From NCBI GenBank assembly GCA_000165345.1, contig CM000430.1, forward strand, positions 704,001-768,000: a stretch of DNA of 64,000 bases, in the 5' to 3' direction. A program made the translations under genes and the position numbers. The notes beneath the pieces are model-generated. The model made no database searches, was not told the DNA's origin, and saw only the letters and a program-made list of their open reading frames with translations. Positions 21,781 through 22,682 of the stretch are shown in pieces; positions within the stretch are counted from its first letter, which is position 1; the number at the start of each line of letters is the position of its first letter.

Positions 21781-21838
21781 CCTCTGTATTCATTATCGTC
21801 ATGTAATTACTTTTTGTTCACGACTTACTATTAAAGTG

Positions 21839-21856
21839 GCGGGAAAGGTGCGCGCC
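21839..21856. promoter_or_regulatory. Composite E2F-like element GGCGGGAAAGGTGCGCGCC, about 60 bp upstream of the TERT ATG in the TERT/USP divergent promoter.
   Basis: GGCGGGAAA is the classical E2F site (reverse complement of TTTCCCGCC). It is followed by GCGCGCC. Confidence 0.5.
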
Positions 21857-22267
21857 ATACATGATTGTATTTAGATTTAATGCTCTGAGGAGAAGAAATG
21901 GGTTGGGGGAGACCATAGAAAGGTTAAGAATGAAGGAGGCGATGATGGTGGGGTATTAGAAGAAGGGAGGAATAAATGTTAAGGATTTAGGAATTATAAG
22001 AGGTAAATATATGAGTAAGGAGTTTTGGTTAATTGAGTGAAGTGTTAAGTAGAAGCGTGGAGAGGGAATTTGATTATAGGCAATCGAACTATGGTAAAGA
22101 AAGAGATAAATGGAGGTAAGATATAAATCATCAGTTCAGAGTGTTTGAAAATAAAAGAAGGAAAGAAAAATAAAAGAATCAAAGCATTTTGAGAAGGAAT
22201 TAAATTTGAAAAAGTTGGAGGCCACCACACAATTTACACACAACCTAGGGGGATCTGTCTCTAACGT

Positions 22268-22280
22268 GTTTTGGCGCCAA
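22268..22280. promoter_or_regulatory. E2F-like box TTTTGGCGCCAA in the TERT/USP spacer (USP side).
   Basis: Palindromic TTGGCGCCAA. Confidence 0.45.
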
Positions 22281-22598
22281 CAAAGATTTATGCAAGCTAT
22301 AGGAGAAGAAAGAATAGGTAAAAGAGAATAAATAGAAGAAAGGTAAAAAGTTGTGTAAAATTAATAATAAAAGATTCAAGTTGAGATACTGGAGGAATTG
22401 AAAGAGAGAAGGAGACTGCGTGTGAGGAAATTCTGGAGAAAGATAGAGGAAAAGGAGGGTCAGGGAGGGAAGTAATATACAAAAAGAGGTTAAAAGGAGA
22501 ATTTAAGAATAACAAGAAATATATCTTAGGAGTGAGAAGTATTTAGCAGGACAGATTTAGGAGGAGGAGAAAAATAGAGTTTTAGTAGGTGAAAACAG

Positions 22599-22668
22599 AA
22601 TATATATATACATATATATATATATATATATATATATATATATGTATATAATATATATTAATATATGT
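22599..22668. repeat. (AT)n / (TA)n dinucleotide microsatellite immediately upstream of the USP start codon.
   Basis: tatatatatacatatatatatatatatatatatatatatgtatataatatatatta. Confidence 0.9.
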
Positions 22669-22682
22669 ACAAATAGAGTAAT

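What the first reader, a model, noticed from the sequence alone, without database searches (positions are those of the whole stretch)
21781..22682. TERT and a USP deubiquitinase share a 900-bp divergent promoter with E2F-like boxes on both sides and an (AT)n microsatellite
A classical E2F site (GGCGGGAAA plus GCGCGCC) lies about 60 bp upstream of the TERT ATG. A palindromic TTGGCGCCAA lies about 400 bp upstream of the USP ATG. E2F control of TERT is known in metazoa, and an E2F/DP axis is unusual among apicomplexans but present in Cryptosporidium. A 70-bp (AT)n tract abuts the USP start and could modulate spacing or expression by slippage.
Basis: partly seen in the sequence, partly recalled or inferred. 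Interest (0 to 1): 0.5.

Follow-up and report, generated by a model that had tools for sequence, protein, structure and literature searches.

The report
E2F-box promoters between TERT and USP
The 900-bp gap between the telomerase gene and a deubiquitinase gene of Cryptosporidium parvum does hold two E2F-type promoter boxes conserved across the genus and a length-variable AT repeat, but this is the parasite's standard, already published promoter pattern, and the two genes are not expressed together.

Summary
The window is Cryptosporidium parvum chromosome 2. The genes are TERT (cgd2_3440, minus strand) and a USP-family deubiquitinase (cgd2_3450, plus strand), head to head across a 902-bp spacer.

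The E2F-like boxes are not chance. TTTSSCGC occurs 8 times in the window against 0.73 expected, and 7 of the 8 lie outside ORFs. E2F-like cores reach about 1 per kb in divergent spacers against 0.02-0.05 per kb in coding DNA. Both boxes sit in conserved islands in 11 Cryptosporidium species or genotypes, including C. andersoni, whose spacer is 19% GC.

This is still the known rule for the genus. E2F-like motifs are the most over-represented upstream motif in C. parvum (Oberstaller 2013) and dominate ATAC-seq peaks (Xiao 2025 preprint). All seven divergent spacers in this window carry such cores.

The "shared promoter" reading fails. The two conserved modules lie 430 bp apart. Published RT-qPCR shows TERT flat and low (2.4-fold range), while USP rises 674-fold and peaks at 72 h.

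The (AT)n tract varies between isolates and is missing in distant species, so it is most likely a neutral microsatellite.

Verdict: real, ordinary, low interest.

The parts
17356..21780 (-). TERT coding ORF (cgd2_3440), 1474 aa. The newer C. parvum gene model continues to window position 16883 through about 98 nt of intron.
   Evidence: Pfam Telomerase_RBD 3.5e-20. Orthologues are named TERT. Gene ID. The 1599-aa model in GCA_015245375.1 is.
21781..21835 (-). Conserved TERT leader or core-promoter stretch next to the ATG. In TERT sense it reads ...AATAGTAAGTCGTGAAC...GACGATAATGAATACAGAGG|ATG. An in-frame TGA lies 12 nt upstream of the ATG, so this stretch is not coding.
   Evidence: 17 of 20 columns invariant next to the ATG in the alignment of six species or genotypes. 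GACGATAA and AATAGT are kept as far as C. felis and C. canis. The stop codon was read directly.
21838..21846 (-). TERT-proximal E2F-like box, TTTCCCGCC in TERT sense. It matches TTTSSCGC 8 of 8, and 10 of 12 positions of published motif 4, TTTGGCGGGAAV.
   Evidence: The GGCGGG core is invariant in parvum, tyzzeri, hominis, meleagridis, chipmunk genotype and ubiquitum. CCCGCC is also present in C. canis and C. felis at a similar distance.
21850..21856 (.). Second half of the TERT-proximal bipartite element, GCGCGCC, containing the core CGCGCC (SGCGCS).
   Evidence: A GCGCC core is kept in C. ubiquitum (ACGCGCC), C. felis (TGCGCC) and C. andersoni (ACGCGCC, 69 bp from the TERT ATG), and the unnamed Logan species has TTTTGGCGCGCAAA.
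21866..21879 (.). Conserved TGTATTTAGATTTA island distal to the TERT boxes. Function unknown.
   Evidence: 13 of 20 columns invariant. ATTTAGATT is kept in the Logan species and C. canis.
22224..22243 (+). Two CACACA / GCACAC-type elements (ACCACACAATTTACACACAA). These are AP2-type motifs and form the left part of the central module.
   Evidence: 19 of 20 columns invariant. Kept in the Logan species, C. felis, C. bovis and, as one altered copy (CCACCACGCAA), C. canis. CACACA is bound by four C. parvum AP2 domains in protein-binding arrays (PMC4117751). AP2_2 GCACAC is listed in the review.
22246..22262 (+). G-run plus TGTCTCT (TAGGGGGATCTGTCTCT), the middle part of the central module.
   Evidence: 15 of 19 columns invariant. 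AAGGGG(G)...GTCTCT is kept in C. canis, C. felis and the Logan species; C. bovis has only TGTCTCT, and C. andersoni has only a G-run (GTGGGG).
22269..22280 (.). Central palindromic E2F-like box, TTTTGGCGCCAA. It matches published motif 3 (DTTGSCGCCH), TTTSSCGC and WSGCGCSW.
   Evidence: TTTGGCGCCAA is identical in 9 species or genotypes; C. bovis has GGCGCCAA and C. andersoni has GCGCCAA. The chance of GCGCCAA appearing in composition-shuffled spacers is 0.001-0.08 per species.
22284..22293 (+). GATTTATGCA, the right flank of the central module.
   Evidence: GATTTAT is invariant in the alignment. GGATTT is kept in C. canis and the Logan species.
22448..22481 (+). Conserved purine block GGAAAAGGAGGGTCAGGGAGGGAAGTAATATACA, about 200-235 bp upstream of the USP ATG. 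It may lie near the USP transcription start or in the leader (inferred).
   Evidence: 11 and 13 of 20 columns invariant, against 38% overall.
21880..22590 (+). Purine-rich stretch, 72-76% A+G on the USP-sense strand, interrupted only by the central module.
   Evidence: Kept in the intestinal clade but absent in C. bovis and C. andersoni.
22600..22666 (.). Imperfect (AT)n microsatellite with a perfect (AT)16 run at 22612-22643.
   Evidence: Length differs between assemblies. As RNA it would fold into a -31.5 kcal/mol hairpin, z = -3.5.
22683..23831 (+). USP-family deubiquitinase CDS (cgd2_3450), 382 aa.
   Evidence: Pfam UCH PF00443 9.9e-45. Exact protein match in C. parvum assemblies. Gene ID.

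Best explanation
The spacer holds two separate promoter modules of the ordinary Cryptosporidium type, one for each gene.

(1) The TERT module is bipartite and compact. In TERT sense it reads GGCGCGC-N6-TTTCCCGCC, and it sits 58-79 bp upstream of the TERT ATG. It is followed by a conserved short leader. It most likely recruits the parasite's E2F/DP heterodimer and gives low, roughly constant transcription.

(2) The central module is composite and spans about 22224-22293. Its order is two CACACA/GCACAC elements, a G-run, TGTCTCT, the palindromic E2F box TTTGGCGCCAA, then GATTTAT. This order and its orientation towards USP are fixed. It most likely acts as the USP promoter, combining E2F/DP with stage-specific AP2 factors. 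That would give a purine-rich 5' leader of about 350-400 nt and the steep rise of USP mRNA late in infection.

(3) The (AT)n tract lies downstream of all conserved elements, in the presumed USP leader. It most likely behaves as a neutral slippage-prone microsatellite.

Shown: sequence matches, enrichment, conservation, synteny, repeat-length variation and the discordant mRNA profiles. Inferred: which protein binds the boxes, where transcription starts, and which module serves which gene.
For: Motif matches and enrichment.

Synteny: the head-to-head TERT/USP arrangement is kept in C. parvum, tyzzeri, hominis, meleagridis, chipmunk genotype, ubiquitum, canis, felis, bovis, an unnamed Logan species and andersoni.

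Footprints:
- The central block has 34 of 39 columns invariant against 38% for the whole spacer (binomial P = 3e-10).
- TTTGGCGCCAA is the best-conserved non-repetitive k-mer of the spacer across distant species.
- The flanking order CACACA - GGGGG - GTCTCT - box - GGATTT is kept in full from the parvum clade to C. canis and C. felis and in part in C. bovis, which shows the boxes are orthologous and not just recurrent.
- In C. andersoni (spacer 19% GC) the only GCGC-containing islands are the TERT-proximal ACGCGCC and the central TAGCGCCAA.
- The TERT-proximal CCCGCC and/or GGCGCG cores are kept in all species except C. bovis.

Separate regulation: TERT is flat with a 2.4-fold range and USP rises 674-fold to a 72-h peak (PMC3305300 supplementary file 2; statistics). 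They fall in clusters 16 and 7, and cluster 7 is reported to have over-enriched E2F-like, AP2 and G-box motifs.

Literature on the motif class:
- E2F-like motifs 3 and 4 are found upstream of 161 of 200 clusters.
- ATAC-seq peaks are dominated by E2F motifs, usually one per peak.
- CACACA and G-box are AP2-binding motifs.

(AT)n:
- One AT unit is the only difference in the spacer and the 5 kb to its left (5,920 compared bases) between this window and two other C. parvum assemblies.
- The tract spans 55-87 bp across isolates and species.
- It is absent in C. felis, C. bovis and C. andersoni.
Against: - No transcription-start, RNA-seq or ATAC data for this locus could be reached. Assigning the central module to USP rests only on its fixed orientation and on the two genes having different expression profiles.
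- The central box is about 400 bp from the USP ATG. Most boxes in this window lie 42-190 bp from the nearest start codon, although three others lie at 311-415 bp.
- The box is nearly equidistant from both genes (490 and 403 bp), so it could serve both, or serve another transcript.
- The purine skew extends to the TERT side of the central box. This model does not explain that.
- E2F/DP binding to these motifs has never been shown in Cryptosporidium.
- In C. bovis and C. andersoni the boxes depart from the strict E2F consensus.
- The RT-qPCR series comes from bulk, asynchronous cultures with noisy replicates. It cannot exclude cell-cycle periodicity of TERT.
Confidence: 0.6

Rival explanations
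1. There is one shared bidirectional promoter. The E2F boxes jointly co-regulate TERT and USP.
For: The genes are head to head across 902 bp. More than half of the sporozoite ATAC-seq regulatory peaks in C. parvum are annotated as bidirectional promoters. The arrangement is syntenic across the genus.
Against: There are two separately conserved modules 430 bp apart. The mRNA profiles are discordant: a 2.4-fold range against 674-fold, with Spearman rho -0.36. The genes belong to different expression clusters.
Confidence: 0.1
2. The spacer is transcribed in the USP sense over most of its length. This could be a very long USP leader or an unannotated non-coding RNA starting next to the TERT-proximal boxes, which would make those boxes a true bidirectional promoter. 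Alternatively the central module drives its own transcript.
For: About 700 bp of 72-76% purine lies on the USP-sense strand, on both sides of the central box. That places it in the top 1.3% of 300-bp windows for strand asymmetry, and the other such windows are mostly coding repeats. The skew is kept in the intestinal clade. The C. meleagridis annotation places a spliced plus-strand 78-aa gene model inside the spacer. Long non-coding RNAs and polycistronic transcripts are documented in C. parvum.
Against: The C. parvum spacer has no ATG-started ORF longer than 46 aa and no Rfam match. The skew is absent in C. bovis and C. andersoni although both boxes are kept there. Neither gene ID appears in the lncRNA paper's supplementary tables held as text. 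GAGA-like purine motifs are a known promoter feature that needs no transcription.
Confidence: 0.15
3. The GC-rich boxes are real cis-elements but are bound by a factor other than E2F/DP, for example an AP2, Myb or zinc-finger protein, or they act mainly as nucleosome-excluding GC islands in AT-rich DNA.
For: No binding data exist for Cryptosporidium E2F/DP. In C. andersoni and C. bovis the conserved part is GCGCC(AA) without the T-run the E2F consensus requires. Oberstaller et al. caution that motif presence does not prove binding.
Against: In most species the boxes match the E2F consensus exactly, including the T/A flanks: TTTCCCGCC, TTTGGCGCCAAA. None of the 15 AP2 domains with array-derived motifs is reported to bind this motif, and the authors class it as recognised by a non-AP2 protein. 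The genus encodes two E2F and two DP proteins.
Confidence: 0.15
4. The (AT)n tract is a functional tuning element. Slippage changes leader length or hairpin strength, and so changes USP expression.
For: Length varies within and between species. As RNA the tract would fold into a -31.5 kcal/mol hairpin just upstream of the ATG, z = -3.5. It contains the longest perfect AT run in the window.
Against: It is absent in C. felis, C. bovis and C. andersoni and only a remnant in C. canis and C. ubiquitum, while the USP gene and the central module persist. No length class is preferred. AT-rich repeats are common in spacers of this 30% GC genome. Part of the apparent variation may be assembly error: there are Ns in one assembly and Logan contigs break inside the tract.
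Confidence: 0.08
5. The motifs are chance matches in a GC-poor spacer.
For: The motifs are short, at 7-10 bp.
Against: They occur 10 to more than 50 times above shuffle expectation. They are conserved in position and flanks across the genus. The chance of GCGCCAA is 0.001-0.08 per species in shuffled spacers, and it is present in all seven distant species or genotypes tested.
Confidence: 0.01

Closest known systems
C. parvum E2F-like upstream motifs: motif 3 DTTGSCGCCH and motif 4 TTTGGCGGGAAV (Oberstaller et al. 2013, PMC3734150). Noted earlier as an over-represented non-coding motif on chromosome 6 (Bankier 2003) and upstream of DNA-replication and glycolysis genes.
   Same: The central box TTTGGCGCCA is an exact match to motif 3. 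The TERT box matches 10 of 12 positions of motif 4 and 8 of 8 of TTTSSCGC. Both lie in upstream non-coding DNA. They show the same enrichment over coding DNA in this window.
   Different: Nothing differs in kind. This work adds a locus-level footprint. Both boxes are conserved in position and flanking context across the genus, including the gastric species C. andersoni. The central box is embedded in a fixed composite module with CACACA and G-run elements.
E2F-dominated open-chromatin peaks and bidirectional promoters in C. parvum sporozoites (Xiao et al. 2025 preprint, 10.1101/2025.01.17.633476)
   Same: A head-to-head gene pair whose spacer carries E2F motifs.
   Different: That study describes typically one peak with one E2F motif. 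This spacer has two conserved E2F-type modules 430 bp apart and discordant expression, which points to two promoters. No ATAC data for this locus could be read.
E2F sites in the human TERT core promoter (from general knowledge, e.g. Crowe et al. 2001 and Won et al. 2002; not checked here)
   Same: An E2F-consensus site lies within about 100 bp of the TERT start.
   Different: The resemblance does not imply homology. In C. parvum the motif is upstream of most gene clusters, so its presence at TERT is not specific. Most E2F partner proteins known from animals are reported absent in C. parvum. TERT mRNA is flat in the only time course read.
Plant E2F sites TTTCCCGCC / TTTGGCGGG (Ramirez-Parra 2003, as cited in PMC3734150)
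   Same: The TERT-proximal box is the identical 9-mer, TTTCCCGCC.
   Different: Binding and cell-cycle function are shown in plants. Neither has been tested in Cryptosporidium.
Polymorphic AT-dinucleotide microsatellites in AT-rich protist intergenic DNA
   Same: An imperfect (AT)n tract that differs by whole AT units between isolates and breaks short-read assemblies.
   Different: It sits unusually close to a start codon, ending 16 bp upstream. It is the longest perfect AT run in the window.

Membership tests
Cryptosporidium E2F-like upstream motif class (Oberstaller motifs 3 and 4) | Sequence matches DTTGSCGCCH or TTTGGCGGGAAV, with core SGCGCS or GGCGGG | tested here: met
   22270-22279 TTTGGCGCCA is an exact match to motif 3. 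21835-21846 AGTGGCGGGAAA matches 10 of 12 positions of motif 4, and TTTCCCGC matches TTTSSCGC.
Cryptosporidium E2F-like upstream motif class (Oberstaller motifs 3 and 4) | Located in upstream non-coding DNA and over-represented there relative to background | tested here: met
   1.08 per kb in divergent spacers against 0.02-0.05 per kb in ORFs, with 0 of 200 shuffles reaching the observed count. Whole-window enrichment is shown.
Cryptosporidium E2F-like upstream motif class (Oberstaller motifs 3 and 4) | Under purifying selection, i.e. conserved at orthologous loci | tested here: met
   Both boxes are kept, with their flanks, in 11 species or genotypes.
True E2F/DP target site | Bound by the E2F/DP heterodimer in vitro or in vivo | not testable with these tools
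   No binding data exist for any Cryptosporidium E2F site.
True E2F/DP target site | Target gene shows cell-cycle or proliferation-linked expression | tested here: inconclusive
   TERT has a 2.4-fold range over 2-72 h in bulk asynchronous culture. USP peaks at 72 h, whereas one E2F (cgd1_1570) peaks at 2 h and the other E2F (cgd6_1430) and both DP genes peak at 12 h. Bulk data cannot resolve periodicity.
Shared (co-regulating) bidirectional promoter | Head-to-head genes separated by less than about 1 kb | tested here: met
   902-bp spacer.
Shared (co-regulating) bidirectional promoter | Correlated expression of the two genes | tested here: not met
   Spearman rho -0.36 and Pearson r -0.39 on log means. 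The genes are in different published clusters, 16 and 7.
Shared (co-regulating) bidirectional promoter | A single regulatory module or nucleosome-free region with transcription starts on both sides | not testable with these tools
   Conservation shows two modules 430 bp apart. No ATAC or transcription-start data for this locus were accessible.
Expression-tuning promoter or leader microsatellite | Repeat number varies between isolates | tested here: met
   Perfect AT run of 30-32 bp in C. parvum, 30-44 bp in C. hominis and 40 bp in C. tyzzeri; whole tract 55-87 bp. Caveat: some of the differences may be assembly error.
Expression-tuning promoter or leader microsatellite | The repeat is maintained by selection across related species | tested here: not met
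   Absent in C. felis, C. bovis and C. andersoni; only a remnant in C. canis and C. ubiquitum.
Expression-tuning promoter or leader microsatellite | Repeat length correlates with expression | not testable with these tools
   No isolate-resolved expression data.

The most novel reading that the evidence does not exclude
The TERT-proximal boxes may be a true bidirectional start site. In that reading the whole ~800-bp purine-rich spacer is transcribed in the USP sense, as a long leader or non-coding RNA. The conserved central composite module (CACACA x2, G-run, GTCTCT, E2F palindrome) would then act as an internal, stage-specific switch for USP, and the (AU)n hairpin just before the ATG would add isolate-variable translational damping. 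A more modest version is that E2F control of TERT goes back to the origin of the genus, which would make the E2F-TERT link a convergent or ancient eukaryotic feature rather than a metazoan one.
Probability: 0.12. Interest if true: 0.4.

Novelty: new member of a known kind. Interest (0 to 1): 0.2.

Why it matters
It matters little beyond the locus. The result gives a clean example, supported by phylogenetic footprinting, that the E2F-like boxes predicted genome-wide in C. parvum are under selection. They survive in a 19% GC spacer in C. andersoni. It also shows that they can sit in a fixed composite with AP2-type motifs. That makes this spacer a compact, well-defined test substrate for the first E2F/DP binding or reporter experiments in Cryptosporidium, which the field still lacks. 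The (AT)n tract could serve as a typing marker for isolates. Nothing here changes the current picture of Cryptosporidium gene regulation or of telomerase control.

Tried and rejected
- Hidden gene in the spacer. There is no ATG-started ORF longer than 46 aa in C. parvum and no conserved ORF. There is no Rfam family at E <= 0.1. The 78-aa spliced model in C. meleagridis has no counterpart, so I treat it as a prediction artefact of the GA-rich sequence, though this is not proven.
- Telomerase RNA next to TERT. I searched both strands for any 8-10-mer of (CCTAAA)n, which would be the template for the TTTAGG telomere repeat (the repeat sequence is taken from general knowledge). None lies in 21781-22682. 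Rejected.
- An in-frame upstream extension of TERT to explain the conserved 55 bp next to its ATG. An in-frame TGA lies 12 nt upstream (read). Rejected.
- GATTTA as a new general promoter motif. It occurs 4 times in the spacer against 0.73 expected (P = 0.0045), and three copies are in invariant islands. Its density is the same in coding and non-coding DNA of the window, about 1.45 per kb. Not pursued.
- Locus-level transcript or chromatin evidence. The lncRNA paper's supplements do not mention either gene. The supplements of the ATAC/polycistron preprint are not held. Full-text searches for the gene IDs found nothing useful.
- The bacterial promoter/terminator scan and the phage, plasmid and E. 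coli collections were not used, because the window is eukaryotic.
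Full report
**What the window is**

The 64-kb window is about 30% GC. The 382-aa protein encoded at 22683..23831 is identical to a protein on chromosome-scale contigs of two C. parvum assemblies, including CP044421.1 of GCA_015245375.1, and public sources name it ubiquitin C-terminal hydrolase of C. parvum. Compared with those two assemblies, the window has 0 mismatches in the 5,920 bases to the left of the AT repeat and 1 mismatch in the 7,149 bases from the USP ATG rightwards. The window is therefore C. parvum chromosome 2.

**Observation check**

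- The minus-strand ORF 17356..21780 (1474 aa) hits Pfam Telomerase_RBD at 3.5e-20. Its orthologues are named telomerase reverse transcriptase.
- The plus-strand ORF hits Pfam UCH, which is the USP family, at 9.9e-45.
- Supplementary tables of Oberstaller et al. 2013 give the gene IDs cgd2_3440 (telomerase) and cgd2_3450.
- The spacer is 21781..22682, 902 bp.
- GGCGGGAAA is at 21838-21846, which reads TTTCCCGCC in TERT sense, with 57 bases before the TERT ATG.
- GCGCGCC is at 21850-21856.
- TTGGCGCCAA is at 22271-22280, with 402 bases before the USP ATG.
- The (AT)n tract is at 22600-22666 (67 bp, 84% matches) and ends 16 bp before the ATG.

All elements of the observation are correct.

**Is it more than chance?**

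Yes. Observed counts against dinucleotide-shuffle expectation for the whole window:

| Pattern | Observed | Expected |
|---|---|---|
| TTTSSCGC (canonical E2F consensus) | 8 | 0.73 |
| GGCGGGAAA | 3 | 0.04 |
| TTGGCGCCAA | 2 | 0.00 |
| WSGCGCSW | 5 | 0.24 |

No shuffle reached any observed count.

I drew a crude gene map from the longest non-overlapping ORFs. On it, 7 of the 8 TTTSSCGC hits lie outside ORFs, although non-ORF DNA is only 31% of the window. The cores SGCGCS and GGCGGG each reach 1.08 per kb in divergent spacers, against 0.02 and 0.05 per kb in ORFs. In convergent spacers there is a single GGCGGG-type core and no SGCGCS core. Shuffling each region class separately never reached the observed counts in divergent spacers (0 of 200).

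**The locus is not special**

The same analysis shows that all seven divergent spacers in the window contain at least one E2F-like core. The spacer at 37243-38042 even has the same layout, with one box near each gene.

This is what the literature describes:
- Oberstaller et al. 2013 found E2F-like motif 3 (DTTGSCGCCH) and motif 4 (TTTGGCGGGAAV) to be the most over-represented upstream motifs in C. parvum, present upstream of 161 of 200 co-expression clusters.
- A 2025 preprint finds E2F motifs to be the dominant motif in sporozoite ATAC-seq peaks. More than half of those peaks are annotated as bidirectional promoters.
- A 2025 review repeats that Cryptosporidium is the only apicomplexan genus retaining E2F/DP, and that most of its regulatory components, including this one, lack functional validation.

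**Comparative evidence at this locus**

I fetched the orthologous locus from C. tyzzeri, C. hominis (five assemblies), C. meleagridis (two), chipmunk genotype I, C. ubiquitum, C. canis (two), C. felis, C. bovis, an unnamed species from a Logan assembly, and C. andersoni. A short C. andersoni-like metagenome contig was also recovered. The head-to-head TERT/USP arrangement is kept in every one.

In an alignment of six species or genotypes, from C. parvum to C. ubiquitum (one C. hominis row counted), 38% of spacer columns are invariant. Three regions stand out:
- the first 20 bp next to the TERT ATG (17 of 20 invariant);
- the GGCGGG and CGC cores of the TERT-proximal boxes;
- above all a block at 22224-22300. 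Within it, 34 of 39 columns are invariant in 22224-22262 (binomial P = 3e-10), followed by the E2F box.

An alignment-free k-mer comparison with seven more distant species or genotypes shows that TTTGGCGCCAA is the best-conserved non-repetitive word of the spacer. It is present in 5 of 7, GGCGCCAA in 6 of 7, and GCGCCAA in all 7. Per-species chance probabilities are 0.001-0.08.

The flanks show that the boxes are orthologous rather than independently recurring. The order CACACA(x2) - AAGGGG(G) - TGTCTCT - TTTGGCGCCAA - GGATTT is kept in full from the parvum clade to the Logan species, C. canis and C. felis (C. canis with a single altered CACACA copy, C. felis without GGATTT). C. bovis keeps GCACACA, TGTCTCT and the box.

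In C. andersoni the spacer is 553 bp and 19% GC. Its only GCGC-containing islands are ...GGGAAGGGGGGTAAAATACGCGCC, 50-75 bp from the TERT ATG, and TTTAGCGCCAA at the centre, 262 bp from the USP ATG. A GTGGGG G-box lies 45 bp before the central box.

In TERT sense, the proximal module reads GGCGCG(C)-N5-9-(T)CCCGCC-...AATAGT...GACGATAA...ATG. At least one of its two cores is kept in all species except C. bovis.

**What the central module adds**

CACACA and the G-box G[T/C]GGGG are motifs bound by C. parvum AP2 domains in protein-binding arrays (PMC4117751). GCACAC is listed as AP2_2. The central E2F box is thus part of a fixed composite with AP2-type elements, oriented the same way relative to USP in every species where the flanks are recognisable.

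**Are the two genes co-regulated?**

Published data say no. The RT-qPCR time course of Mauzy et al. 2012 (supplementary file 2, four replicates, 2-72 h) gives these means:
- TERT (cgd2_3440): 1.2e-7 to 2.7e-7, a 2.4-fold range.
- USP (cgd2_3450): from 1.1e-8 at 2 h to 7.2e-6 at 72 h, a 674-fold rise.

Spearman rho is -0.36. Oberstaller et al. place TERT in cluster 16 and USP in cluster 7. Cluster 7 is one of three clusters that peak at 72 h, upstream of which E2F-like, AP2 and G-box motifs are over-enriched. The caveat is that these are bulk asynchronous cultures with noisy replicates, so cell-cycle periodicity is not tested.

**Most likely mechanism**

There are two ordinary promoters, not one shared promoter.
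- The compact bipartite TERT-proximal element gives low, roughly constitutive transcription.
- The central composite module is the USP promoter. It combines E2F/DP with stage-specific AP2 input and produces a purine-rich leader of about 350-400 nt.

Shown: motif matches, enrichment, conservation, synteny and discordant expression. Inferred: the binding proteins, the transcription starts, and which module serves which gene. I put 0.6 on this model.

**The (AT)n tract**

- This window has exactly one more AT unit than two other C. parvum assemblies, and that is the only difference in the 5,920 compared bases that cover the spacer and the TERT gene to its left.
- The perfect AT run is 30-32 bp in C. 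parvum, 40 bp in C. tyzzeri, 30-44 bp in C. hominis and 20 bp in C. meleagridis. The whole tract spans 55-87 bp.
- One assembly has Ns inside it, and three Logan contigs end inside it. Part of the variation may therefore be technical.
- The tract is absent in C. felis, C. bovis and C. andersoni, and only a remnant in C. canis and C. ubiquitum.
- It lies downstream of every conserved block.
- As RNA it would fold into a -31.5 kcal/mol hairpin (z = -3.5). An effect on translation is conceivable but unsupported.

A neutral microsatellite is the best reading.

**Unexplained**

The USP-sense strand of the spacer is 72-76% purine over about 700 bp, on both sides of the central module. This is in the top 1.3% of 300-bp windows for strand asymmetry, and the other such windows are mostly coding repeats. 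The skew is kept in the intestinal clade but not in C. bovis or C. andersoni. It could reflect a long USP-sense transcript starting near the TERT-proximal boxes, GAGA-like promoter elements, or drift. I found no conserved ORF and no Rfam family there. Stranded RNA data would settle it.

**Comparison with the known, and verdict**

The boxes are members of the published Cryptosporidium E2F-like upstream motif class. Sequence, location, enrichment and conservation were all tested and met. Binding by E2F/DP cannot be tested here.

The locus fails the co-expression criterion of a shared bidirectional promoter.

The parallel with E2F sites in the human TERT promoter, which I recall from general knowledge, is a resemblance only. 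In this genome the motif sits upstream of most gene clusters, so finding it at TERT carries little specific information.

The finding is real but ordinary: a new, well-footprinted member of a known kind. Interest is about 0.2.

Noticed in passing
window 8317-8355: A tight cluster of promoter-type motifs (TTGGCGCCAAA, TGCATGCA, TTTTGGCGGGA) lies inside the long minus-strand dynamin-like ORF 7920..9380. It holds the only TTTSSCGC hit of 8 that falls in coding sequence. It could be an internal or antisense promoter, or it could serve something in the ORF-free gap 7199-7919, which also holds TTTCCCGCC at 7298.
   Followed up: partly
window 21880-22590: About 700 bp of 72-76% purine on the plus strand, broken only by the central conserved module. 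This is the most extended purine-skewed non-coding stretch in the window. It is conserved in the intestinal Cryptosporidium clade but not in C. bovis or C. andersoni.
   Followed up: partly
window 16883-17355: The TERT ORF stops at 17356. The C. parvum GCA_015245375.1 gene model is 1599 aa over 4898 bp and ends at window position 16883, which implies about 98 nt of intron near 17288-17355. The 134-aa ORF 16883..17287 (-) would then be the last TERT exon. Other assemblies annotate only the 1474-aa ORF.
   Followed up: no
window 37243-38042: A second divergent spacer (800 bp) has the same layout. TTTGGCGCCGGCGGG lies 188 bp from the minus-strand gene, and TTTTGGCGGGAAAT lies 156 bp from the plus-strand gene.
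   Followed up: no
window 21874, 21984, 22285, 22554: GATTTA occurs four times on the plus strand of the spacer, against 0.73 expected (P = 0.0045). Three copies sit in invariant islands of the alignment, and two read GATTTAGG, which resembles the TTTAGG telomere repeat. The word is not enriched in non-coding DNA of the window overall.
   Followed up: partly
L018 5191-5812 and L019 5189-5810 (C. meleagridis): Both C. meleagridis assemblies annotate a spliced 78-aa plus-strand gene inside the TERT/USP spacer. No other species has such a model, and C. parvum has no matching ORF.
   Followed up: partly
L003, L004, L017 (Logan contigs) and L016 (C. hominis JTAI01000042.1): Short-read assemblies end or carry Ns inside the (AT)n tract 62 bp upstream of the USP ATG. 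The repeat is an assembly breakpoint, so published lengths should be treated with caution.
   Followed up: yes
window 17829-17919: An imperfect GAA/GAG-type tandem repeat inside TERT encodes a poly-serine run (SSSCSSSCSSSSSS...) near the C-terminal part of the protein. It is a low-complexity insertion typical of the genus.
   Followed up: no
window 30403-30483 and 44923-44993: Other AT-rich imperfect repeats lie 46 bp and about 120 bp upstream of the start codons at 30529 and 45112. AT-type repeats just upstream of start codons therefore recur in this window.
   Followed up: no
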